Source: a candidate division WOR-3 bacterium (GTDB lineage: Bacteria; Hydrothermota; Tepidihabitantia; Tepidihabitantales; CAIPLT01). From it: 64,000 nt of DNA. The stretch covers positions 3,108 to 67,107 of the forward strand of contig CBFGJZ010000006.1 of the NCBI GenBank assembly GCA_965649215.1, in the 5' to 3' direction. The notes under the pieces were generated by a model that did not search any database, had not been told where the DNA came from, and worked only from the letters and a program-made list of their open reading frames with translations. Both the position numbers and the translations under genes were made by a program. This document shows, one piece after another, positions 33,880-53,482 of the stretch (within the stretch, counting starts at the first letter, position 1; the number at the start of each line of letters is the position of its first letter).

Positions 33880-33952
33880 TACCCCTGGTGAGATTCGAAC
33901 TCACGACCTACGGTTTAGGAAACCGTCACTCTTTCCAACTGAGCTACAGGGG
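33880..33952 (-). tRNA. tRNA-Arg (anticodon CCT)
   Basis: Manually folded cloverleaf on the minus strand: acceptor GCCCCTG/CAGGGGT; D-arm GCTC…GAGT; anticodon stem ACGGT/ACCGT with loop TTCCTAA; T-arm GTGAG-TTCGAAT-CTCAC; discriminator A; CCA not encoded. Confidence 0.85.
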
Positions 33953-34000
33953 CTAATCATATCATTATATTAGATTAATAAATTCTGTCAATCAATTATC

Positions 34001-34363
34001 TTACAAACCTTGACAACTTTCTGCCTCATATTTTTCTTTGATCATATCTTCGATTGTTTTAGTAGTTTCTTCGCTTATTAATGACTTTACATGTTCAAAA
34101 TCGGCTTCAATGTTGCGTGAATATTCTTCTAATTCTCTAAGTGCTTTTTTCCCACTCGCATATTCTAAACATTTTAAACGTCTCAATAGTACTTCATAAG
34201 GTTTATCCGAGGTATAGGTTAATAGCGTATATCTAGCAACAAAACTATGACAATTAGCACATTCGATGTAAACTCTGATATGTTCACCGGTTTTAACATG
34301 AACATAATTAATTAATGTTGTGCTATTGCACTTCGGGCATGCTTCTTTTTTAGCATTTTCCAT
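34001..34363 (-). CDS. Hypothetical zinc-ribbon protein (CxxC…CxxC)
   Basis: CPKCN…CANCH pair; 120 aa; no family recognised. Confidence 0.45.
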   Translation of the reverse strand: MENAKKEACPKCNSTTLINYVHVKTGEHIRVYIECANCHSFVARYTLLTYTSDKPYEVLLRRLKCLEYASGKKALRELEEYSRNIEADFEHVKSLISEETTKTIEDMIKEKYEAESCQGL

Positions 34364-34384
34364 TATTATAACTCCTTTAAGACT

Positions 34385-35737
34385 TTATTTGAAAAATAAA
34401 ATTGTTATTAGTTTTATATAAAATATAATAACGATCGCTGATATTATTGCAATAATACTACCATATTTAATCATATTCCTAATTTTTATTAAACCTGAAC
34501 CATAAGCAATTGCATTTGGTGGCGTACTAACTGGTAAAATCATCGCAATTGATGCTGCAATACTAACAATTAATGCAGTATCTATTGATTTAGCAGTAAG
34601 GCCGACTGCGATCGGCAATAAAATTGCAGCAGTACTAGTATTGGAAATAAAACTAGTTAATATTATAGTTATAATAGATAGCCCAGCTAAGAGTAATAAA
34701 CTCGGAAATGCTTGAAAATTTAATAAATTAACAAACCAATTGGAAAGGCCACTTTTTTCGATCGACATTCCCAGTGATAATCCACCACCCATTAATATTA
34801 AAGTATCCCAACCTAAATTACCAAAATGCTCTTCTTTTAATAAACCAAAACCACTAAAAATTATTACTGGAATTAACGAAACAATACTCGTTGGAATTTT
34901 ATGCAATTCTGCTGTTAACCATAATAAAAATGTAAGCCCAAATACTCCTAATACTAACTTTTGTTCAGATGTAAATCCTTGTGTCTTATTTTCAATTAAT
35001 TGAACATTTTTTATCTTGGATTTAAAGCCCATCTTTAATATCAAATAAATAATGATAAAAAGTAAAATTGTTAATGGGACAGCAAATGCCATCCAACCGA
35101 TAAAAGATAAATTAATATTTTTAGAACGCAATATGCTAATTGCTAATGCATTTGGTGGTGTTCCAATGGGAGTAGCAATTCCACCGATATTAGCGGCAAA
35201 AGGAATGCCTAAAGCAAGGGCGGGTATTAGCGGGTCTTCGGGAGGGATATTTTGCTTTAAGACTAATACTAAGCCAATCATTAAAGCGGTTGTTGCTGTA
35301 TTAGACATCCACATTGAAAGAAATGCAGTAACTGCCATTAATCCAATTAGAACCCGATTAGAATCGTTACCAATGCGTTTTAGAATTAAGAATACAAACC
35401 ATTCATCTAAATCATATTTTTTTAAAGCTTGAGCTAATACTAAACCACCTAAGAACAATACAATAACTGAATCAAAAAAAGGTACAAGAAATATTCGAAA
35501 ATTATCACCCATGGGCGGAATATGAGTGAGAAATACTGCTTGTAAAAATAAGATAATAAACGAGGTAACATACAAAGGAACAACTTCACTAATCCAGAAT
35601 AAAGAAGCGATAATCAAAATGCAAAGAGTCCTTTTACTTGCTTCGGTTAATCCATGAATAGGAAGTAAATAAATAATTAATGTAATTAGGGTAAATAATA
35701 AAATTAAGATTATTTTTTTTATTGTTTCTTTTTTCAC
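34385..35737 (-). CDS. Anion permease of the ArsB/NhaD-DASS (SLC13-like citrate/di-carboxylate transporter) superfamily
   Basis: 450 aa, 10+ TM segments, duplicated GGxxTxxGTPPN-type hairpin motifs (IGTPPNALAI; VSTPPNAIAY). Confidence 0.65.
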   Translation of the reverse strand: MKKETIKKIILILLFTLITLIIYLLPIHGLTEASKRTLCILIIASLFWISEVVPLYVTSFIILFLQAVFLTHIPPMGDNFRIFLVPFFDSVIVLFLGGLVLAQALKKYDLDEWFVFLILKRIGNDSNRVLIGLMAVTAFLSMWMSNTATTALMIGLVLVLKQNIPPEDPLIPALALGIPFAANIGGIATPIGTPPNALAISILRSKNINLSFIGWMAFAVPLTILLFIIIYLILKMGFKSKIKNVQLIENKTQGFTSEQKLVLGVFGLTFLLWLTAELHKIPTSIVSLIPVIIFSGFGLLKEEHFGNLGWDTLILMGGGLSLGMSIEKSGLSNWFVNLLNFQAFPSLLLLAGLSIITIILTSFISNTSTAAILLPIAVGLTAKSIDTALIVSIAASIAMILPVSTPPNAIAYGSGLIKIRNMIKYGSIIAIISAIVIIFYIKLITILFFK

Positions 35738-35755
35738 AGGATAGTTTAATGTATC

Positions 35756-37867
35756 TTATAAGAGGAATCGGGCATCAATTGCTACTGCTCCTTTTCCCTC
35801 TTCATATACAACAAATGGGTTTATGTCTATTTCATTAAACTCAGGAAAGTCGGTTGTTAATTGGGATAATCTTTGTAAAGATTCTTCAATTATTTTTATA
35901 TCCGCTGGCCCTTTACCTCTAAATCCCTTAAGAATTCGATAACTCTTTATTTCTTGAATCATATGGAGTGCTGATAAAGCTTTAATTGGACAAATTCGAA
36001 AACTGACATCGCGCAGTACTTCCACATAAATACCACCTAAGCCAAACATAATAAGCGAACCAAATTGAGGATCTTTTTTAATACCCATAATTGTTTCAAT
36101 ACCGCGTGCTGCCATTTTTTGTATGAGAAATCCTTCAATTCGTGTGGTTGGTTTTAGAGCTTTAATTTTATTTTGCATTTCTTTGTATTTGCTTATTAAT
36201 TCGTCATCATTGTTGATATCAATTGCAACACCACCAACATCGGTTTTATGCAGGATATCTGGTGAAACTACTTTCATAACTAGCGGATAACCGATTTCCT
36301 TTGCTTTTGTTATTAATTCATCAGGAGTTTTAACTAAAGTATTTGGTAAAATAGGAATCTTATAAGCATTGAGAATTTGGTAACCTTCATTTTCAAGAAG
36401 TGCCTTGGGAGAACGATTTTGAACATTTTTAATAATCATTGCTACTGTTTCTTTGTCGACATCATCAAAATATCTTACTTCGCTTTTTGGTAGTTGAGTC
36501 CAATCATAAAATGAACACATGTTGGCTAAAGCTTTTGCCGCAGTTTCAGGAAAAGGATAATATGGTATTTTAGCTTGCCATAATGTTTGAATTACTTCTT
36601 TTGTATTTTCTAACGATAAAAGACAACCCATAATTGGTTTAGCATAATTGGGAGCAATTTTGATGATTTCTTGAGCAATCGTTTTTGTCTCAGCCATTAA
36701 AGTTGGTGTCCAGATCGCGATGATGCCATCCACATTATCATCTTCTAATAATAATTTAAGCGCTTGGGAATATCTCTTTTCGTCCGCATCTCCAATTACA
36801 TCAAGAGGATTGTTAATACTCGCTGAAGAAGGTAAGAAGTTTCTAAGACTCTGTTTTGTTGTTTCGGTGAAAGTAGATAATTGTAATTCATTTCTAATTA
36901 CAGAATCCGTTGCCATAATACCCATTCCACCCGCATTGGTAATAATTGCCATCTTACGAGATTTTGGAATTGGTTGTCCAGAGAATGCTTTAGCATAATC
37001 AAATAACTCACTTACTGTATCGACTCGGATAATACCACATTGATGTAAAAATGCGTTATATGCCTCATCAGAACCAGCTAAAGCACCAGTATGAGAAGAT
37101 GCCGCCTTTGCACCTTCTGTAGTCCGGCCTGACTTAATTGCCAAAATTGGTTTACCAATATTTGCTGTGACATCATACGCTACATCCATAAATTTTTTAG
37201 GATACACTAAATCCTCTAAATAAAGGATAATTACAGTTGTTTGTTCGTCGTCTCGAAGATATTCCAATAAATCATTTTCATTGATATCAGCTTTATTACC
37301 AATTGAAATAAACTTTGATAATCCAATTCCCTCTGCTTCTGCATATTCTAATGCAGTTACCCCAACTGCACCACTCTGAGAAACAAAAGCAATATTACCA
37401 CTCGGTGGCAATGCTTTACCAAAAGTTGCATTAAGCCGAACCCGATGATCAGAATTTATCATACCAAAACAATTAGGACCGATTAAAGAAAGATTGTGTT
37501 TCTGGGCAATTTCTTTAATTCGTTTTTCTAACTTAAGACCGCTCTCCCCTATTTCTTTAAACCCCGCAGTAATAATTATGGCACCTTTTACATTTTTTTG
37601 ACCGCATTCTTCAATTATTTCTGGAACTGCCGGAGCAGGAACAATTATAACCGCTAAATCAACCTCGTCAGGAATATGCAAAACCGATGGAAATGCTTTT
37701 ACTCCGAGCACGCTCCGAACATTAGGATTAACCGGATAAACAATACCTGTAAATCCGTTCATTAGGATATTAGCAAAAGTTGCTTGCCCAACACTGCCGG
37801 CTCGAGTTGAAGCCCCAATTACGGCAATTGAGCGCGGCCAGAAGATAAACTTTAAATTCGGATTCAT
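35756..37867 (-). CDS. Acetate--CoA ligase (ADP-forming) / NDP-forming acyl-CoA synthetase, fused alpha+beta
   Basis: N-terminal CoA-binding (VIGASTRAGSVG) and succinyl-CoA-synthetase-like domains plus C-terminal ATP-grasp; 703 aa. Confidence 0.8.
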   Translation of the reverse strand: MNPNLKFIFWPRSIAVIGASTRAGSVGQATFANILMNGFTGIVYPVNPNVRSVLGVKAFPSVLHIPDEVDLAVIIVPAPAVPEIIEECGQKNVKGAIIITAGFKEIGESGLKLEKRIKEIAQKHNLSLIGPNCFGMINSDHRVRLNATFGKALPPSGNIAFVSQSGAVGVTALEYAEAEGIGLSKFISIGNKADINENDLLEYLRDDEQTTVIILYLEDLVYPKKFMDVAYDVTANIGKPILAIKSGRTTEGAKAASSHTGALAGSDEAYNAFLHQCGIIRVDTVSELFDYAKAFSGQPIPKSRKMAIITNAGGMGIMATDSVIRNELQLSTFTETTKQSLRNFLPSSASINNPLDVIGDADEKRYSQALKLLLEDDNVDGIIAIWTPTLMAETKTIAQEIIKIAPNYAKPIMGCLLSLENTKEVIQTLWQAKIPYYPFPETAAKALANMCSFYDWTQLPKSEVRYFDDVDKETVAMIIKNVQNRSPKALLENEGYQILNAYKIPILPNTLVKTPDELITKAKEIGYPLVMKVVSPDILHKTDVGGVAIDINNDDELISKYKEMQNKIKALKPTTRIEGFLIQKMAARGIETIMGIKKDPQFGSLIMFGLGGIYVEVLRDVSFRICPIKALSALHMIQEIKSYRILKGFRGKGPADIKIIEESLQRLSQLTTDFPEFNEIDINPFVVYEEGKGAVAIDARFLL

Positions 37868-37869
37868 AT

Positions 37870-39708
37870 TTATTCTTGAAAATTAATAATTAATGTATAT
37901 ACACCATCTGACCATTTACTTTTAACTGGATAACCCATTTTATGAGTTAAACGATAAGCTGCAACATTCGTATCTAATACATATCCGATAAATCCTTTGA
38001 TTTGTTTCATTTTGGCAATTTTTATCAAATCTGCAAAAAGCACCGTTCCGATGCCTTTATTTTGCCATTCATCTGCTATTGCAAAAGCAAATTCAGCAAA
38101 ACCACTTGCTTTATCTAAACTATATCCGGCCATCCCGATAATTTTTTCTTCACCGGCTTGTTTTAACACTACTACTAATACTAATTCATTATCATAATCG
38201 ACATTAACGAATTTAGATAGCCGATCATGAGGTAAGGCATTAAGATAAGAAAAAAAGCGATAGTAAATAGTTTGGCTTGAAAACTTATAAAAAAGTTCTC
38301 TCACTAATGGTTCATCAGTCGGACGTACTGGCCGAATAAAGACTTTTAATCCATTTTTTGTTTCAGCCCATGTCTCGAGTTCTTCGGGATAACGAGCATG
38401 AACTAATGGTAATTCCGGCTGGTCTTGATAAACGTAATTTAATTCTTTTGCTTTCTTGAGTAGTTCAGCACGGAATTTGGGATGCGCAATCGATATCAAA
38501 GAAAGTGCTCGTTCCCGGATAGTTTTACCATAGAGATTAGCCACGCCCCATTCGGTTACAACATAATGAACATCACCTCTCGTTGTTACTACTCCAGCGC
38601 CTTCGGAAAGAGCTGGTACGATTCTTGATTTACTTTCATCTGAGCGAATTGATGGGACAACAATAATTGCTTTGCCATCTTTTGCTCGAGCTGCACCCCG
38701 TACAAAATCAAGTTGTCCCCCAATCCCCGAATAGAATTTATATCCGATTGAATCCGCACAAACTTGTCCAGTGAGATCTATTTCAATTGCGGAATTAATC
38801 GAAACCATTTTTTCATTTTGAGCAATTACAAAAGGATCGTTAGTATAACTTACGGGATGAAATTCAAAAAAGGGATTATTATCAAGATAGCGGTACAATC
38901 TTTTAGTACCCATTGCAAAAGCAGCTATACATTTACCTTTATGAAGCGATTTTTTTCGGTTGGTAATAACACCTTTATCAATTAAATCAATTAAATTATC
39001 AGAAAAGACTTCGGTATGAATACCGATATCTTTTTTATTCTCTAAGAAATCAAGTAGTGCGGTTGGTACACCCCCATAGCCAACTTGAATTGTTGAACCA
39101 TCTTCAATTAAATCAGATACATTTTTAGCAATGCGTTTAACGATTTCTGGTTGTGCTTTAACCGTATATTCAAGAATTGGTTCTTCTGAGTATACTACAT
39201 AATCAATTTCATTAAGATGAATAAATGAATCGCCAAGAGTTCTAGGCATATTTGGATTAATCTCGGCAATAACAATTCTTGCCGCTTCTGTCGCAGGTTT
39301 AGTAATATCTACAGAGATACCGTAACTACAATAACCATGTTCGTCAGGTAATGATACGGTTATCAACGCAACATCAATTGGCAATCTTCCTGATAAAAAT
39401 AACTTGGGAATTTCGGATAAGAATATCGGTGTATAATCAGCGCCACCTTGTTGAACTCGTTCTCGTAAATCTCTACCGATAAAAAAAGTATTGGTCCGAA
39501 ACTTATCTTTTAGAGTTTCTTGTGCATAATCAACAATACCCAGATTTAAAATTTGTGTTATTTCAACATCTTCGGCAGGTGCTAAAGTTAATGCTTTAAC
39601 CAAAGACTGTGGTGCTCCACAAGCCGAACCAATAAAAACGCGAAACCCAGATTTTATAGCTTTTACTGCTTGTTCAGGTTTAATTATTCTTTTTTTCCAA
39701 TCAATCAT
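37870..39708 (-). CDS. Bifunctional acetyl-CoA hydrolase/transferase-family protein fused to a C-terminal GNAT N-acetyltransferase domain
   Basis: N-terminal ~430 aa with CoA-transferase family I features; C-terminal ~170 aa with GNAT motif A (QNKGIGTVLF). Confidence 0.7.
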   Translation of the reverse strand: MIDWKKRIIKPEQAVKAIKSGFRVFIGSACGAPQSLVKALTLAPAEDVEITQILNLGIVDYAQETLKDKFRTNTFFIGRDLRERVQQGGADYTPIFLSEIPKLFLSGRLPIDVALITVSLPDEHGYCSYGISVDITKPATEAARIVIAEINPNMPRTLGDSFIHLNEIDYVVYSEEPILEYTVKAQPEIVKRIAKNVSDLIEDGSTIQVGYGGVPTALLDFLENKKDIGIHTEVFSDNLIDLIDKGVITNRKKSLHKGKCIAAFAMGTKRLYRYLDNNPFFEFHPVSYTNDPFVIAQNEKMVSINSAIEIDLTGQVCADSIGYKFYSGIGGQLDFVRGAARAKDGKAIIVVPSIRSDESKSRIVPALSEGAGVVTTRGDVHYVVTEWGVANLYGKTIRERALSLISIAHPKFRAELLKKAKELNYVYQDQPELPLVHARYPEELETWAETKNGLKVFIRPVRPTDEPLVRELFYKFSSQTIYYRFFSYLNALPHDRLSKFVNVDYDNELVLVVVLKQAGEEKIIGMAGYSLDKASGFAEFAFAIADEWQNKGIGTVLFADLIKIAKMKQIKGFIGYVLDTNVAAYRLTHKMGYPVKSKWSDGVYTLIINFQE

Positions 39709-39866
39709 ATTACCTTCTTTTAAATTACATCAAAATAACCATGCTTACTAAGTAAGTATAAAATATTATTTTATGTTACATTAATTAAAGTAAGTATAAA
39801 TTATAATTTAGTATTTGTCAATAATAGTTCTTGACTTAAGTATAATATTAAGTAAAATTAACAACT

Positions 39867-50048: not shown

Positions 50049-51584
50049 TTAATGAAGCCTTTCTTGCCGAGCCTGAATTTTCCATTTCGATGTGTATGAT
50101 GAATTTAATCTAATACTTTTAGGTAATTTATGATTTTCCTCAAGATAATTATATAATGCTATAGTTATCGCAGCTATTTTATTAAAATCATTACTTTCTT
50201 GGTTATAAGTATTTCTTTCTGTTTCGATGTTCTCTTCTACAATTTCACCTTTTAAAAATTTAATTGCTATTTGAGGAAATAATGTATAAGTCATTAAATC
50301 TTCTTCTTCATGTCCTCTTCGTAGGAGATGTAAAGTTTCTACCTCTTGTTTTTTTACAGATAATTCCGGTTTTAATAAGTCAGCGGGTCGACAATCTATT
50401 GGTTTTTCATTACCAATGATTATTTTTAATATGTCTTTTTTAATTGTTGCCGGAGGTCTGCCATATAAACCCAAACAATAATCTTTAACTTCTTTACTAA
50501 TTTGTGAATATCGTTTACCTGATAATACATTCAATACGGCTTGAATACCTACAATTTGACTTGTTGGAGTAACTAAAGGTGGATATCCTAAATCTTCTCT
50601 TACTCTTGGTGTTTCCGCTAATACTTCTTGGTATTTATCTAGCGCATTTTGTTCTTTTAATTGTGCATGTAAATTTGAAAGCATTCCTCCCGGAATTTGA
50701 TGAACTGCTACTGATGCATCAGTCATTTCCGCAATTGGACTAATATATTTTGAATATTTCTTCTTCATGTCTAAAAAATAATAACCAACATTGATAATCT
50801 TTTTTATGTCGAGTTTCGTATCATAAGGACTATCTTGAAGACTCACGACAATATTTTCTAATGAGGGTTGCGAACTACCACCACTAAAAACTGATACTGC
50901 AGTATCAACAATGTCCACTCCCGCTTGAATGGCAGAATAATAACTTATCAATCCCATTCCACTGGTACAATGAGTGTGTAAATTAATTGGTACTTTTATA
51001 ATTTGTTTTAAAGCTTTCACTAATTCATAAGCTATGTGTGGTGAAATCAAACCAGCCATATCCTTTATACAGATATAATCACAACCCATCAATTCTAATT
51101 GATGACCCATTTCAACAAATTTTTCAATAGTGTGAACTGGACTTGTAGTATAACAAATCGTTCCTTGTACTTCGCTACCAAGATCTTTAGCGGTTTTAAT
51201 TGCTTTTTCCATATTCCGAATATCATTTAAAGCATCAAAAATTCTAAAAATATCAATCCCATGTTTTTTAGCTAACTTTATGAAATTTTCAACGACATCA
51301 TCAGCATAATGTCGATAACCCACAAGATTTTGGCCTCTGAGTAACATTAATAATTTTGTATTAGGTAAGTGTTCCCTTAATTTATCTAATCGAAACCAAG
51401 GATCTTCTGCTAAATAACGAATACAGACATCAAAAGTTGCGCCGCCCCAAACTTCCATTGCAAAAAATCCAATTTTATCCATTTGGTCACATATTGGTAT
51501 CATATCAGAAATTCTCATCCGGGTAGCCATCAATGATTGATGCGCATCACGAAAAGTAGTATCAATAATCTTTACGGTATTCAT
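50049..51584 (-). CDS. Oxaloacetate decarboxylase alpha / pyruvate carboxylase subunit B-type carboxyltransferase (5S) without fused biotin domain
   Basis: TIM-barrel carboxyltransferase N-terminus (IIDTTFRDAHQS) and conserved core; 511 aa. Confidence 0.8.
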   Translation of the reverse strand: MNTVKIIDTTFRDAHQSLMATRMRISDMIPICDQMDKIGFFAMEVWGGATFDVCIRYLAEDPWFRLDKLREHLPNTKLLMLLRGQNLVGYRHYADDVVENFIKLAKKHGIDIFRIFDALNDIRNMEKAIKTAKDLGSEVQGTICYTTSPVHTIEKFVEMGHQLELMGCDYICIKDMAGLISPHIAYELVKALKQIIKVPINLHTHCTSGMGLISYYSAIQAGVDIVDTAVSVFSGGSSQPSLENIVVSLQDSPYDTKLDIKKIINVGYYFLDMKKKYSKYISPIAEMTDASVAVHQIPGGMLSNLHAQLKEQNALDKYQEVLAETPRVREDLGYPPLVTPTSQIVGIQAVLNVLSGKRYSQISKEVKDYCLGLYGRPPATIKKDILKIIIGNEKPIDCRPADLLKPELSVKKQEVETLHLLRRGHEEEDLMTYTLFPQIAIKFLKGEIVEENIETERNTYNQESNDFNKIAAITIALYNYLEENHKLPKSIRLNSSYTSKWKIQARQERLH

Positions 51585-51604
51585 AATTTTGTAGCTGTGA
51601 TTTT

Positions 51605-53482
51605 TTAAACCATAGGTTCTACTGTAAACAAAGGTTGTCCATATTCAACTGTTTGGCCATCTTTCGCTAATATTTCAACAATTCGACATTTTTTTTCAGC
51701 TTCAATTTCATTCATAAGTTTCATTGCTTCAATAATACATAACGTTGAACCTGCTTCTATAACATCATTAATATTAACAAAAGGTGGGGCATCGGGACGA
51801 GGGCGAGAATAAAAAGTTCCCACCATTGGTGATTTAATTTGTTCTAATGTATGTTTAGAGGAAGGAGTTTGAATTTCATTGATAACATCTGACTGTGGCT
51901 GAGATGGTGTATTAATTTTAGTAATTATTTGTGGTTCATTTGATATTTGTTGAGTAGGAACAGCATAGGTTTGATTAATTTTACGAATTTTAATTTTGTG
52001 ACCAGAGCATTCCCATTCTAATTCAGCTAAATTATGTTTCGCTGCTAATTCAATTAATTCTCTTATAACCTCCATATCATCTTTATTTTCTTGTTTCATA
52101 ATATTTTTCCCCTCATCTTGTTTTATAATTTCTAGTTTTTCTGGGTTATCTCTTGTTTCAAAAAAATTTATAGCAATTTCTGGAAATAATGCAAAAGTAA
52201 TAAAATCTTCTTCTTTTTTAATATATTTTGAATTAACTTCTTTTTTTATTTTATTTAATACTGGTTCCAATAAATTTGCTGGTCGTTGAGATATAGGCCG
52301 TTCATTACCAAGAATTTTACGTCGTATTGTATCTTTTATAGGAACTGGTGGTTTCCCATATAATCCTCGTACATAATCTTTAACTTCATTAGGAATTATT
52401 TTATATCTTTCATTAGTGAGAACATTGAATACTGCTTGTACACCAACTATTTGGCTAGTCGGAGTTACTAACGGTGGATACCCTAAGTCTTTTCGTACTT
52501 TAGGAACTTCTTCTAATACTTCTCTCAGACGATGTTCTGCATTTTGCTGTTTTAATTGAACTATAAGATTCGAAACCATTCCTCCTGGTATTTGATGAAT
52601 TGTAACCATTTCATCAATAATTTTATCATATTTTATATCACGTTTATTTTTGATTTGTTCTAAATAATTTGAGACCTCTTCGATTAAATTTTTATTCAGT
52701 TGTAATGTGTATTGGGTATTATCTAACATTGCAATTAAAGTTTCAATTGCTGGTTGAGAAGTTCCGAATGATAATGGTCCATGTGCCGTATCAACAATAT
52801 CTACTCCTGCTTCAATCGCTTTTAGATAACTAGCAACTGCCATTCCACTTGATGCATGAGTATGAAGTTGTACTGGTAATCTTATGTCCTCTTTTAAACG
52901 TTTAATCAATTCAAAAGAAATATGCGGGGCAAGAATTCCCGCCATATCTTTAATACAGATACTGTCTATTCCCAGATCAAGTTGTTTTTTAGCTATCTCT
53001 AAATAATATTCTATAGTATGAATAGGACTTATCGTGTAACATAAGGTACCTTGAGCATGCTTTTTATATTTTCTTACAAACTCTATTGCCTTTTCAATAT
53101 TACGAATGTCGTTTAAAGCATCAAAGATTCGAAAAATATCTATACCGCGTTCCACACTCTTTTCAATAAATGCTTCTAATAAATCATCAGGATAGTTCCG
53201 ATAACCGACAATATTTTGGCCACGCAACAACATCTGTAATTTCGTCTTTTTTACATATTTCTTTATTAAAGATAAACGTTCCCATGGATCTTCATATAAA
53301 TATCGCAAACACACATCAAATGTAGCTCCACCCCACATTTCCAATGACCAATAACCGATCTCGTCAATTTTTGATAAAATTGGTAATATTTCTTCTGTTT
53401 TCATTCGTGTTGCCCATAATGATTGATGAGCATCACGAAAGGTTGTATCGGTAATTTTAATTTGTTTTGATTTTGCAAGCAT
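51605..53482 (-). CDS. Paralogous carboxyltransferase (OadA/PycB-type) with fused C-terminal biotinyl domain
   Basis: ITDTTFRDAHQS N-terminus; C-terminal IEAMKLMNEI biotin motif; 625 aa. Confidence 0.8.
   Translation of the reverse strand: MLAKSKQIKITDTTFRDAHQSLWATRMKTEEILPILSKIDEIGYWSLEMWGGATFDVCLRYLYEDPWERLSLIKKYVKKTKLQMLLRGQNIVGYRNYPDDLLEAFIEKSVERGIDIFRIFDALNDIRNIEKAIEFVRKYKKHAQGTLCYTISPIHTIEYYLEIAKKQLDLGIDSICIKDMAGILAPHISFELIKRLKEDIRLPVQLHTHASSGMAVASYLKAIEAGVDIVDTAHGPLSFGTSQPAIETLIAMLDNTQYTLQLNKNLIEEVSNYLEQIKNKRDIKYDKIIDEMVTIHQIPGGMVSNLIVQLKQQNAEHRLREVLEEVPKVRKDLGYPPLVTPTSQIVGVQAVFNVLTNERYKIIPNEVKDYVRGLYGKPPVPIKDTIRRKILGNERPISQRPANLLEPVLNKIKKEVNSKYIKKEEDFITFALFPEIAINFFETRDNPEKLEIIKQDEGKNIMKQENKDDMEVIRELIELAAKHNLAELEWECSGHKIKIRKINQTYAVPTQQISNEPQIITKINTPSQPQSDVINEIQTPSSKHTLEQIKSPMVGTFYSRPRPDAPPFVNINDVIEAGSTLCIIEAMKLMNEIEAEKKCRIVEILAKDGQTVEYGQPLFTVEPMV

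What the first reader, a model, noticed from the sequence alone, without database searches (positions are those of the whole stretch)
34001..39708. Acetyl-CoA module: CoA-transferase-GNAT fusion, ADP-forming acetyl-CoA synthetase, DASS transporter, Zn-ribbon protein
Four co-oriented minus-strand genes sit 2-21 nt apart. The first (612 aa) fuses an acetyl-CoA hydrolase/transferase-family domain to a C-terminal GNAT acetyltransferase. It lies immediately upstream of an NDP-forming acetyl-CoA synthetase (703 aa). Together these recapitulate, as separate genes, the domain logic of Pat-type protein lysine acetyltransferases (an NDP-forming ACS-like domain plus GNAT). This may couple acetate/acyl-CoA flux to protein or small-molecule acetylation. 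A di-/tricarboxylate (DASS) transporter and a Zn-ribbon protein complete the unit.
Basis: partly seen in the sequence, partly recalled or inferred. Interest (0 to 1): 0.5.

Follow-up and report, generated by a model that had tools for sequence, protein, structure and literature searches.

The report
CoA-transferase fused to Pat-type acetyltransferase
A candidate-division WOR-3 bacterium encodes an apparently active CoA-transferase fused to a Pat-type protein acetyltransferase domain beside an ADP-forming acetyl-CoA synthetase; this uncharacterised gene pair recurs across dozens of bacterial and archaeal phyla and probably links acetate/acyl-CoA energy metabolism to protein acetylation.

Summary
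In detail: four minus-strand genes sit 2, 18 and 21 nt apart. They encode a 612-aa CoA-transferase–GNAT fusion, a 703-aa ADP-forming acetyl-CoA synthetase (ACD), a DASS transporter and a 120-aa four-Cys protein.

The fusion is not an artefact. It is full-length in more than 120 protein clusters and in 80 of 80 genome loci from over 25 phyla of Bacteria and Archaea.

Both halves look catalytically intact:
- The CoA-transferase Glu233 is kept in 186 of 190 sequences.
- The GNAT aligns end to end with E. coli PatZ residues 705-880, keeping the catalytic Glu (E539 = PatZ E809) and the CoA P-loop.

An ACD gene with its phospho-histidine lies within 500 bp of the fusion in 39 of 80 loci, in either order. 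Other recurrent neighbours are AcuC-type deacetylases, AMP-forming Acs and a PtaN-like protein.

DASS plus the Zn-ribbon protein is a separate, WOR-3-only pair that also occurs without the fusion and ACD.

Best reading: an undescribed architecture of Pat-family lysine acetyltransferase, built on a live CoA-transferase and coupled to ACD at the acetate/acetyl-CoA/ATP node. The acetylation target is unknown. I found no paper describing it.

The parts
39793..39821 (-). Promoter-like site (TTGACA-17-TATACT, 11 of 12) about 85 nt upstream of the fusion start. A GAAGG Shine-Dalgarno-like motif lies just before the ATG.
   Evidence: This is a consensus match only; such sites are not enriched over shuffles in this AT-rich region.
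38431..39708 (-). Fusion gene, CoA-transferase half (aa 1-426), of the family I 4-hydroxybutyrate / short-chain acyl-CoA:acetate CoA-transferase type. Catalytic Glu233 is the codon at 39010-39012. The G210-Y-G212 loop and the S327-G-I-G-G-Q-x-D-F335 motif are present.
   Evidence: Pfam PF02550 and PF13336. PDB 9vag 3e-143 and 3gk7 7e-108, with E233 aligned to AbfT E238. E233 is kept in 186 of 190 fusions. The AF2 model matches 2oas with TMt 0.93.
37870..38430 (-). Fusion gene, linker plus Pat-type GNAT half (aa 427-612, then the stop codon). It holds the conserved Y440-P-E-E-x-E445 pre-GNAT motif, the gating-motif equivalent at aa 476-493, catalytic Glu539 (codon 38092-38094) and the P-loop Q549-x-x-G552-x-G554.
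   Evidence: Aligns end to end with E. coli PatZ 705-880 (1.4e-24), with E539 equivalent to PatZ E809 (PMC12184503). Position 539 is E in 183 and D in 6 of 190 sequences. NCBIfam 'acetyltransferase Pat' 2e-21.
35756..37867 (-). ADP-forming acyl/acetyl-CoA synthetase (ACD) with alpha and beta parts fused. The phospho-His loop SSH259TGALAG has its His codon at 37091-37093. The ATP-grasp part has K532 and H540.
   Evidence: TIGR02717 577.2 against 567.15. PDB 8wzu 4e-187, 4xyl alpha 3e-98 and beta 4e-58. H259 is kept in at least 95% of 34 partner ACDs. An ACD lies within 500 bp of the fusion in 39 of 80 loci.
34385..35737 (-). DASS-family Na+-coupled anion (di/tricarboxylate-type) symporter. It is a lineage-specific addition to the operon.
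   Evidence: TIGR00785 281 against 198.6. VcINDY 8e-43 with both SNT motifs and both PPNA motifs aligned. It accompanies the fusion and ACD only in close WOR-3 relatives (L001, L081, L087).
34001..34363 (-). 120-aa CxxC-22-CxxC protein (Zn-ribbon-like N-terminus, helical C-terminus). It is the constant downstream partner of this DASS gene in every context read (window, L001, L081, L085, L086, L087).
   Evidence: Only 17 homologous clusters, all 63-100% identical and nearly all WOR-3. C9, C12, C35 and C38 are invariant. The DASS-ZNR pair occurs without the fusion and ACD in L085/L086. The AF2 model is of low confidence (pLDDT 60.8).

Best explanation
The core is a two-gene module, with both enzymes apparently active.

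1. The fusion protein carries a short-chain acyl-CoA:acetate CoA-transferase (Glu233 would form the enzyme-CoA thioester). Its C-terminus carries a Pat-family GNAT lysine acetyltransferase (Glu539 as general base, with an acetyl-CoA P-loop).
2. The neighbour is an ADP-forming acetyl-CoA synthetase.

Metabolically the two enzymes meet at acetate and acetyl-CoA. The CoA-transferase exchanges CoA between acetyl-CoA and other short-chain acids. ACD interconverts acetyl-CoA + ADP + Pi with acetate + ATP + CoA. Together they could harvest ATP from acyl-CoAs other than acetyl-CoA, or activate acids, with acetate as the carrier. This resembles the ASCT/succinyl-CoA-synthetase cycle.

The GNAT domain uses acetyl-CoA to acetylate a lysine on an enzyme of this node. 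The CoA-transferase domain sits where PatZ has its acetyl-CoA-sensing domain, so it would relay acyl-CoA occupancy to the GNAT. The candidate targets are ACD, AMP-forming Acs where present, and the CoA-transferase domain itself. In some lineages an adjacent AcuC-type Zn deacetylase would reverse the mark.

In this WOR-3 lineage, a DASS carboxylate symporter and its small Zn-ribbon partner have been appended to the operon.

Shown computationally: gene structure, domain identities, conservation of catalytic residues, conserved synteny and phylogenetic spread. Inferred: the enzymatic activities, protein acetylation, the coupling between domains, and the target.
For: - Both catalytic centres of the fusion are conserved. 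E233 is kept in 186 of 190 sequences, GGQxDF is nearly invariant, position 539 is E or D in 189 of 190, and the P-loop is kept.
- The GNAT aligns over its whole length with PatZ, including the pre-GNAT YPxxLE segment and the gating motif (PMC12184503).
- ACD lies within 500 bp of the fusion in 39 of 80 loci (27 of 54 with full flanks). It occurs in both gene orders and in divergent or convergent orientation, in over 25 phyla of Bacteria and Archaea. Partner ACDs keep the phospho-His.
- Recurrent further neighbours are Hist_deacetyl (11 loci within 3 kb), AMP-forming Acs ending PKTRSGK (11 loci) and a PtaN-like AAA_26+DRTGG protein (10 loci).
- The closest solved homologue of the CoA-transferase half is annotated 4-hydroxybutyrate CoA-transferase (9vag, 3e-143). 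It is probably T. thermophilus TtCoAT: its N-terminus (Lys5/Lys6) and G211-I-G213 loop match that paper's description, but the paper text I read lists no PDB code. TtCoAT is a broad short-chain-acid CoA-transferase that uses acetyl-CoA. It is the major substrate of a GNAT acetyltransferase and is deacetylated by a Zn deacetylase (bioRxiv 10.1101/2025.10.31.685773).
- The nearest GNAT relatives include ACD-GNAT proteins that still carry the SHTGA phospho-His loop (P0211, P0241, P0258). They sit beside forms that have lost it, so Pat-type GNATs are repeatedly joined to live acetyl-CoA enzymes.
- The AF2 model of the whole fusion has pLDDT 85.6 and pTM 0.78.
Against: - There is no experimental data for any member, and the acetylation target cannot be read from sequence.
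- I found no conserved lysine specific to partner ACDs; the conserved lysines also occur in the unrelated ACDs I could compare, K245 and K410 in 8wzu and 2csu.
- About half of the fusion loci have no ACD next door, and 31 of 80 have none of ACD, Acs or a deacetylase within 6 kb.
- The 64-kb window itself holds no Acs, deacetylase or PtaN-like gene.
- I could not test whether GNAT-less orthologues of this CoA-transferase also pair with ACD. The ACD link may therefore belong to the CoA-transferase half and not to the GNAT half.
- The ACD(His+)-GNAT fusions examined are not next to CoA-transferases.
- The CoA-transferase scores below the equivalog cut-off for butyryl-CoA:acetate CoA-transferase (314 against 675), so its substrate is undefined.
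Confidence: 0.55

Rival explanations
1. Self-regulation. The GNAT domain's main substrate is the CoA-transferase domain itself, within or between subunits of an oligomer, as in Thermus where the free-standing CoA-transferase is the main substrate of a GNAT. On this view ACD is only a metabolic neighbour.
For: TtCoAT is acetylated on its N-terminal tail (mainly Lys5, also Lys6) by the GNAT TT_C1711. Window Lys6 aligns with Tt Lys5. The next position (window R7, Tt Lys6) is Lys in 136 and Arg in 33 of 190 fusions. Fusion of an enzyme to its own modifier is a classic Rosetta-stone pattern.
Against: The position equivalent to Tt Lys5 is variable in the fusions (D, E, S, A or K). The Thermus authors state that Lys5 is Thermus-specific and that acetylation alone does not change activity. 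This reading does not explain the conserved ACD, Acs and deacetylase neighbours.
Confidence: 0.2
2. The CoA-transferase half is only a ligand-sensing regulatory domain, functionally equivalent to Pat's dead ACD-like domain. The protein would then be simply a 'type III-like' Pat.
For: It occupies the N-terminal position of the regulatory domains of type I and type III GNATs (PMC8556138). It binds acyl-CoA by family definition.
Against: The catalytic Glu, the oxyanion GGQxDF motif and the G-x-G loop glycines are almost invariant across 190 divergent sequences. In contrast, Pat's ACD-like domain lost its catalytic His, as did many ACD-GNAT relatives. Such conservation is the signature of retained catalysis. 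Sensing and catalysis are not mutually exclusive.
Confidence: 0.12
3. The GNAT is a small-molecule N-acyltransferase fed by the adjacent CoA-transferase. It would make, for example, an N-acyl amino acid or amine from an imported carboxylate, with DASS supplying the acid.
For: In principle the fusion could channel an acyl-CoA made by the first domain to the second. GNATs are often small-molecule enzymes. DASS is in the same operon in this lineage.
Against: The GNAT's closest relatives are all protein lysine acetyltransferases, and it shares their specific N-terminal extension and gating motif. Generic small-molecule GNATs score 20 bits or less. The deacetylase and Acs neighbours fit protein acetylation. 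DASS is absent from nearly all fusion loci.
Confidence: 0.08
4. The four genes are just neighbouring housekeeping genes with no functional relationship, and the fusion is an annotation or assembly artefact.
For: Short intergenic gaps are common in compact genomes. Consensus promoter-like matches are not enriched here.
Against: The fusion is full-length in over 120 clusters and 80 genome loci. The fusion-ACD adjacency recurs in many phyla and in different arrangements. The four-gene block keeps its order with different flanks in L087.
Confidence: 0.02

Closest known systems
E. coli PatZ / Salmonella Pat (type I bacterial GNAT lysine acetyltransferase; PDB 9IT0)
   Same: The C-terminal GNAT is homologous over its whole length (PatZ 705-880, 1.4e-24). 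It shares the catalytic Glu (E809 = E539), the P-loop, the pre-GNAT YPxxLE segment and the gating-motif region. A large N-terminal acyl-CoA-binding domain precedes the GNAT. The system is linked to acetate and acetyl-CoA metabolism, and Acs is a neighbour in 11-14 loci.
   Different: The N-terminal domain is a family I CoA-transferase of about 425 aa, not an ACD-like domain of about 700 aa. It keeps its catalytic residues, whereas PatZ's ACD-like domain is catalytically dead (H254 to L245). Here the ACD is a separate, live enzyme. The substrate is unknown.
Thermus thermophilus TtCoAT (TT_C1083) with the acetyltransferase TT_C1711 and the deacetylase TT_C0104 (bioRxiv 10.1101/2025.10.31.685773)
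   Same: The CoA-transferase half's closest solved relative (9vag, 3e-143) is probably TtCoAT. That system combines a short-chain-acid CoA-transferase using acetyl-CoA, a GNAT writer and a Zn-dependent eraser.
   Different: In Thermus the acetyltransferase is a separate protein encoded elsewhere. The CoA-transferase is paired with an NAD+-sensing alanine-dehydrogenase-like protein, not with ACD. I could not check the relationship of TT_C1711 to the Pat clade.
Bacillus subtilis acuABC / acsA
   Same: A GNAT writer and a class I HDAC-type eraser (AcuC) are encoded next to the acetate-activating enzyme they control. In 11-14 fusion loci a Hist_deacetyl gene and/or acs lie within a few kb.
   Different: AcuA is a stand-alone GNAT of another subfamily. 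No CoA-transferase or ACD is involved. The window itself has no AcuC or Acs within 64 kb.
ADP-forming acetyl-CoA synthetases of fermentative archaea (Pyrococcus ACD, Ca. Korarchaeum ACD1 4XYL) and Nitrosopumilus 4-hydroxybutyrate-CoA ligase (8WZU)
   Same: The same five-domain composition and phospho-His loop are present. In related WOR-3 loci 2-oxoacid:ferredoxin oxidoreductases lie nearby, as in archaeal peptide and sugar fermentation.
   Different: The gene is fused alpha-beta. It scores below the equivalog cut-offs for the 4-hydroxybutyrate and 3-hydroxypropionate ligases (767 against 1300; 541 against 1300). To my knowledge no ACD has a known post-translational regulator.
Acetate:succinate CoA-transferase / succinyl-CoA synthetase (ASCT/SCS) cycle
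   Same: The logic is a CoA-transferase plus an NDP-forming CoA ligase sharing one acyl-CoA/acid pair to conserve the thioester energy as ATP.
   Different: The enzyme subfamilies and the shared intermediate differ (acetyl-CoA/acetate here, by inference). The analogy is functional only and was not tested.

Membership tests
Pat-family GNAT protein lysine acetyltransferases | GNAT fold with motif A (Q/R-x-x-G-x-G/A) that binds the CoA pyrophosphate | tested here: met
   Q549-N-K-G552-I-G554 is present. In 190 sequences Q occurs 180 times, G552 181 times and G554 184 times, with A in the other 6. PF00583 scores 35.9 against a cut-off of 20.7.
Pat-family GNAT protein lysine acetyltransferases | Catalytic glutamate equivalent to PatZ E809 / SlPatA E123 | tested here: met
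   E539 aligns with PatZ E809 and SlPatA E123. It is E in 183 and D in 6 of 190 sequences. The role of E809 is taken from PMC12184503.
Pat-family GNAT protein lysine acetyltransferases | Closer to characterised protein acetyltransferases than to other GNATs | tested here: met
   PDB ranking: PatZ 90 bits, SlPatA 43, MtPat 41.5, MsPat 41, SsoPat 27.5, generic GNATs 20 or less. NCBIfam 'acetyltransferase Pat' 76 bits is the best GNAT model but lies below its equivalog cut-off of 460.
Type I / type II Pat (PatZ, SlPatA) | NDP-forming acyl-CoA-synthetase-like regulatory domain in the same polypeptide | tested here: not met
   The N-terminal 426 aa are a CoA-transferase (PF02550/PF13336). The ACD is a separate gene. 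The protein is therefore not a type I or type II Pat.
Pat-family GNAT protein lysine acetyltransferases | Demonstrated acetyl-CoA-dependent acetylation of a protein lysine | not testable with these tools
   This needs biochemistry or acetylome data.
Family I CoA-transferases, 4-hydroxybutyrate / butyryl-CoA:acetate subfamily | AcetylCoA_hydro N- and C-terminal domains above the Pfam gathering scores | tested here: met
   106.1 against 24 and 228.1 against 23.7. The AF2 model superposes on 2oas with TMt 0.93 and rmsd 1.8 Å.
Family I CoA-transferases, 4-hydroxybutyrate / butyryl-CoA:acetate subfamily | Catalytic glutamate that forms the CoA thioester (AbfT Glu238), plus the GGQxDF motif | tested here: met
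   E233 aligns with residue 238 (Glu) of 3gk7. That this is the catalytic residue rests on my knowledge of Macieira et al. 2009. E233 is kept in 186 of 190 sequences, G330 in 190, G331 in 188, D334 in 189 and F335 in 189.
Family I CoA-transferases, 4-hydroxybutyrate / butyryl-CoA:acetate subfamily | Equivalog-level match that would define the substrate (TIGR03948 butyryl-CoA:acetate CoA-transferase) | tested here: not met
   314.2 bits against a cut-off of 674.8. The substrate range is undefined. The flexible loop is G-Y-G here, against G-(V/I)-G in TtCoAT.
NDP-forming acyl-CoA synthetases (ACD) | Alpha-domain model above cut-off and phospho-histidine loop (ACD1 H254 alpha) | tested here: met
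   TIGR02717 scores 577.2 against 567.15. The SSH259TGALAG loop aligns with SHTG in 8wzu and 2csu. H259 is kept in at least 95% of 34 partners.
NDP-forming acyl-CoA synthetases (ACD) | ATP-grasp beta part with the second histidine (His71 beta of P. furiosus ACD) | tested here: inconclusive
   ATP-grasp_5 scores 262.6 bits. H540 in LHKTD lies about 70 residues into the beta-like part (query 472 aligns with PH1789 residue 2). Its identity with His71 beta rests on memory and position, not on a residue-level alignment that I saw.
DASS (SLC13/INDY) Na+-coupled anion symporters | Family model above cut-off, with the two SNT hairpin-tip motifs | tested here: met
   TIGR00785 scores 281.3 against 198.6. 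Both SNT motifs and both PPNA motifs align with VcINDY (8e-43). The substrate cannot be determined.
Zinc-ribbon proteins | Two CxxC knuckles; match to a curated Zn-ribbon family | tested here: inconclusive
   C9xxC12 and C35xxC38 are invariant in 17 of 17 homologues. The Pfam and NCBIfam hits are all below cut-off (18.9 against 27; 17.5 against 37). The AF2 model is of low confidence.

The most novel reading that the evidence does not exclude
The CoA-transferase-GNAT protein could be a sixth, widespread class of prokaryotic lysine acetyltransferase, present in Bacteria and in Archaea including Asgard lineages. Its 'regulatory' domain would be a catalytically live enzyme. Its acyl-CoA loading state would gate a Pat-type GNAT, and that GNAT would acetylate the adjacent ADP-forming acetyl-CoA synthetase. 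This would be the first post-translational control known for that enzyme, and it would set the direction of the acetate/ATP switch in anaerobes. The fusion-ACD pair and the His-retaining ACD-GNAT fusions would then be surviving intermediates on the way to classical Pat.
Probability: 0.2. Interest if true: 0.75.

Novelty: new variant of a known kind. Interest (0 to 1): 0.55.

Why it matters
Reversible lysine acetylation by Pat-type enzymes is the standard example of metabolic control of acetate activation in bacteria. Current classifications list five GNAT architectures (PMC8556138; PMC12184503), and none contains a CoA-transferase.

This architecture was found in over 25 phyla, many of them uncultured anaerobes and archaea. 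It is tied by synteny to ADP-forming acetyl-CoA synthetase, the key ATP-yielding enzyme of many fermenters, for which I know of no regulator.

If the inferred coupling holds, three things follow:
- It gives a handle on how these organisms switch between making and consuming acetate.
- It gives an example of a live enzyme serving as the sensor domain of an acetyltransferase.
- It provides material for reconstructing how Pat acquired its dead ACD-like domain.

Practically, these proteins are annotated only as 'GNAT family N-acetyltransferase' or '4-hydroxybutyrate CoA-transferase', and each name hides half of the protein.

Tried and rejected
- **Artefact or frameshift:** rejected.
- **DASS and the Zn-ribbon protein as part of the conserved unit:** rejected. 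They occur with the fusion only in close WOR-3 relatives, and the DASS-ZNR pair also stands alone. A 116-aa gene downstream of ACD in L082 is not a ZNR homologue.
- **A three-component system with alternative fusions** (ACD-GNAT next to a free CoA-transferase): the two contexts examined for His-retaining ACD-GNAT proteins showed Usp, CBS and sigma-54 regulators, with no CoA-transferase. This idea is not supported.
- **Stand-alone Pat-like GNATs next to ACD:** P0138 and P0142 proved to be contig-edge fragments, and P0138 lies next to an Acs. The genuine stand-alone P0144 sits beside an acyl-CoA dehydrogenase, not an ACD. Uninformative.
- **A lysine conserved only in partner ACDs:** none stood out. 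K245 and K410 could be checked and also occur in unrelated ACDs.
- **Acs, deacetylase or PtaN-like genes elsewhere in the window:** none found.
- **Riboswitch or other RNA in the divergent Thi4/fusion intergenic region:** none. Only a tRNA downstream of the operon was found.
- **Fold search for the Zn-ribbon protein:** not run, because the model was too poor (pLDDT 60.8). The AFDB fold library was unavailable.
- **Literature:** three searches aimed at the fusion found no description of it. One search was malformed and one was too broad to be useful. The sequence of Thermus TT_C1711 could not be obtained.

Full report
**What is there.** The window is AT-rich (about 32% GC). They are separated by 2, 18 and 21 nt.

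A TTGACA-17-TATACT promoter-like site lies about 85 nt upstream of the first gene. A GAAGG ribosome-binding motif lies just before its ATG. Directly after the last gene comes a tRNA-Arg(CCT) at 33880-33953(-), preceded by a perfect TTGACA-16-TATAAT. This bounds the unit at its 3' end. The flanking genes are unrelated housekeeping genes: Thi4 (divergent), Lon, a YbgF-like TPR protein and DprA.

The first protein is 100% identical to a protein of an NCBI candidate-division WOR-3 MAG.

**The fusion protein.**
- Residues 4-420 match both halves of the acetyl-CoA hydrolase/transferase family: PF02550 at 3e-30 and PF13336 at 6e-68.
- They match solved 4-hydroxybutyrate-type CoA-transferases. The best is 9vag at 3e-143, and C. 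aminobutyricum AbfT (3gk7) scores 7e-108.
- Glu233 aligns with residue 238 of AbfT, which I know as the catalytic glutamate. The G-x-G loop and the SGIGGQxDF motif are present.
- Residues 427-612 align end to end with E. coli PatZ residues 705-880 (1.4e-24). They align less strongly with SlPatA, MtPat, MsPat and Sulfolobus Pat.
- Glu539 corresponds to PatZ E809, and Q549-x-x-G552-x-G554 is the CoA P-loop. The PatZ 'gating motif' V746-T763 maps to residues 476-493. These roles are taken from PMC12184503.
- AlphaFold2 with a 54-sequence alignment gives pLDDT 85.6 and pTM 0.78. The only stretch below pLDDT 50 (residues 486-490) falls inside the gating-motif equivalent.
- Foldseek against the PDB matches only the CoA-transferase half (2oas, TMt 0.93). 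No solved chain covers both halves.

**Not an artefact, and not rare.**
- The 120 best protein clusters all carry both the CoA-transferase and GNAT Pfam domains. Nearly all are full-length fusions at 53-100% identity; the few exceptions are truncated.
- The 80 loci kept all encode the fusion at 45-84% identity.
- They come from WOR-3, Planctomycetota, Verrucomicrobiota, Desulfobacterota, Chloroflexota, Nitrospirota, Thermotogota, Bipolaricaulota, Thermoplasmatota, Bathyarchaeia, Thor-, Hod- and Promethearchaeota and others.
- Across 190 fusion sequences, E233 is kept in 186, the GGQxDF glycines, Asp and Phe in 188-190, position 539 is E or D in 189, and the P-loop glycines are kept in 181-184.

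Both halves are therefore under selection for catalysis. This differs from classical Pat, whose ACD-like domain has lost the catalytic histidine.

**The neighbour.** The 703-aa protein has the full domain set of an NDP-forming acyl-CoA synthetase. It passes TIGR02717 (577.2 against 567.15) and carries the phospho-histidine loop SSH259TGALAG. It falls well below the equivalog cut-offs for the 4-hydroxybutyrate and 3-hydroxypropionate ligases, so its acid specificity is open.

**Conserved synteny.**
- tblastn of the window ACD against the 80 loci finds an ACD gene within 500 bp of the fusion in 39 loci. Among the 54 loci with at least 2.5 kb on both sides, the figure is 27.
- The order is ACD then fusion in most Planctomycetota, Verrucomicrobiota, Fibrobacterota and Desulfobacterota loci.
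- The order is fusion then ACD in WOR-3, Thermoplasmatota, Asgard, Thermotogota and Bipolaricaulota loci.
- In a few loci the two genes are divergent or convergent.
- The partner ACDs are only 30-45% identical to the window's, and at least 95% keep H259.
- By my own estimate, with one or two ACD genes among a few thousand genes, well under one chance adjacency is expected in 80 loci.

Clustering all neighbouring ORFs, with Pfam annotation, shows further recurrent neighbours. An HDAC/AcuC-type deacetylase lies within 3 kb in 11 loci. An AMP-forming Acs with the canonical PKTRSGK end lies within 3 kb in 11 loci. A BioD-like+DRTGG (PtaN-like) protein lies directly after ACD in 10 loci. MFS transporters also recur. 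In all, 49 of 80 loci have ACD, Acs or the deacetylase within 6 kb.

**DASS and the Zn-ribbon protein.**
- The transporter is a clear DASS member (TIGR00785; VcINDY 8e-43, both SNT motifs).
- The 120-aa protein has four invariant cysteines but only 17 homologous clusters, all 63-100% identical and essentially all WOR-3.
- In WOR-3 relatives the four-gene block recurs with the same flanks (L081) or with different flanks (L087).
- More distant WOR-3 genomes have the fusion and ACD alone, next to 2-oxoacid:ferredoxin oxidoreductases (L082, L083).
- The DASS-ZNR pair also occurs alone, with no fusion or ACD nearby (L085, L086).

The window's operon is thus a lineage-specific junction of two independent pairs. 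The small protein belongs with the transporter.

**Relation to what is known.** Reviews and the 2025 PatZ structure paper classify bacterial protein-acetylating GNATs into five architectures. None includes a CoA-transferase. Three literature searches aimed at the fusion found nothing on it.

The most relevant experimental system is Thermus thermophilus. There a free-standing CoA-transferase, TtCoAT, is a broad short-chain-acid CoA-transferase that uses acetyl-CoA. It is the cell's most prominently acetylated protein, written by a GNAT and erased by a Zn deacetylase. TtCoAT is probably the protein in 9vag, the best structural relative of our domain. The paper text I read gives no PDB code, but the 9vag N-terminus (Lys5/Lys6) and its G211-I-G213 loop match the paper's description.

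A phmmer search of the GNAT half against 1.84 billion representative proteins gave 3135 hits below 1e-10. The top 150 mix three size classes: about 600-660 aa (CoA-transferase-GNAT), 790-965 aa (ACD-like-GNAT) and 170-280 aa proteins. Two of the three short ones I checked were contig-edge fragments, so the short class is only partly genuine stand-alone GNATs.

Of 16 ACD-like-GNAT representatives, three keep both the SHTGA loop and the HK(S/T)D motif. Three more keep only the histidine, and the rest have lost it. The His-retaining form is common in Desulfobacterales. Pat-type GNATs have thus been joined repeatedly to acetyl-CoA enzymes that are still live.

**Interpretation.** The best-supported reading is a bifunctional CoA-transferase / Pat-family lysine acetyltransferase that works with an active ACD at the acetate/acetyl-CoA/ATP node. 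The GNAT would provide acetyl-CoA-dependent protein acetylation, reversed by AcuC-type deacetylases where these are present.

The target cannot be deduced from sequence. The candidates are:
- **Acs**, the canonical Pat substrate and a neighbour in some lineages.
- **ACD**, the most frequent neighbour.
- **The CoA-transferase domain itself**, by analogy with Thermus.

The analogy with Thermus is weak at residue level. The site equivalent to Tt Lys5 is variable, although the next position is Lys or Arg in 169 of 190 sequences.

I could not test whether GNAT-less orthologues of the CoA-transferase also pair with ACD. The ACD association may therefore reflect shared metabolism more than regulation.

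**Verdict.** This is a new variant of a known kind, a widespread and uncharacterised Pat-family architecture, of moderate interest.

Noticed in passing
window 33880-33953 (-), promoter-like site 33964-33991 (-): A tRNA-Arg(CCT) sits between the Zn-ribbon gene and the TPR gene. It is preceded by a perfect sigma-70 consensus (TTGACA-16-TATAAT), which marks the 3' end of the four-gene unit.
   Followed up: yes
L085 5653-7348, L086 5652-7348, L087 5649-7363, L081 10988-12716; window 34001-35737: The DASS transporter and the 120-aa four-Cys protein form a conserved pair of their own in WOR-3, with gaps of 8-22 nt. The pair also occurs away from any CoA-transferase or ACD. The small protein may be a transporter accessory or regulator. 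It has no homologues below about 63% identity.
   Followed up: partly
L040, L042, L044, L056, L059, L062, L063, L080 (directly downstream of ACD, about 2.1-2.3 kb downstream of the fusion); also L026, L032, L068: A protein of about 350 aa with BioD-like AAA_26 and DRTGG domains (like the regulatory N-terminal part of phosphotransacetylase) follows ACD in fusion-ACD-X order in archaeal and some bacterial loci. It could be an allosteric partner of ACD.
   Followed up: partly
P0211, P0241, P0258 (and P0288-P0406); loci L088, L089: Desulfobacterales 'Pat-like' proteins of about 890 aa keep the ACD phospho-His loop (SHTGA) and the HK(S/T)D motif, unlike E. coli PatZ. They may be true bifunctional ACD/acetyltransferases. 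Universal-stress-protein genes flank them.
   Followed up: partly
L052 8001-11754: A Thorarchaeota MAG carries two tandem copies of the CoA-transferase-GNAT fusion gene, next to an Acs and an MFS transporter gene.
   Followed up: no
P0236 (960 aa): This variant has an N-terminal extension of about 330 aa, rich in Cys clusters (Fe-S-like), in front of the CoA-transferase-GNAT.
   Followed up: no
window 50049-53482 (-): Two tandem paralogous genes carry HMGL-like and PYC_OADA carboxyltransferase domains (oxaloacetate decarboxylase alpha / pyruvate carboxylase B type). Only the upstream one (51605-53482) carries a biotinyl domain. They may be relevant to dicarboxylate metabolism, alongside the DASS transporter.
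   Followed up: no
window codons for aa 210-212 of the fusion (G-Y-G): The flexible active-site loop is G-Y-G in the window and in 129 of 190 fusions (mostly the WOR-3-rich set). TtCoAT and 58 other fusions have G-(V/I)-G. This may mark a different substrate range.
   Followed up: no
L082 11830-14755, L083 2648-4962, L087 1-1476: 2-oxoacid:ferredoxin oxidoreductase genes (POR/VOR/IOR type) lie close to the fusion-ACD pair in several WOR-3 genomes. This fits an acyl-CoA-to-ATP fermentation role for ACD.
   Followed up: no
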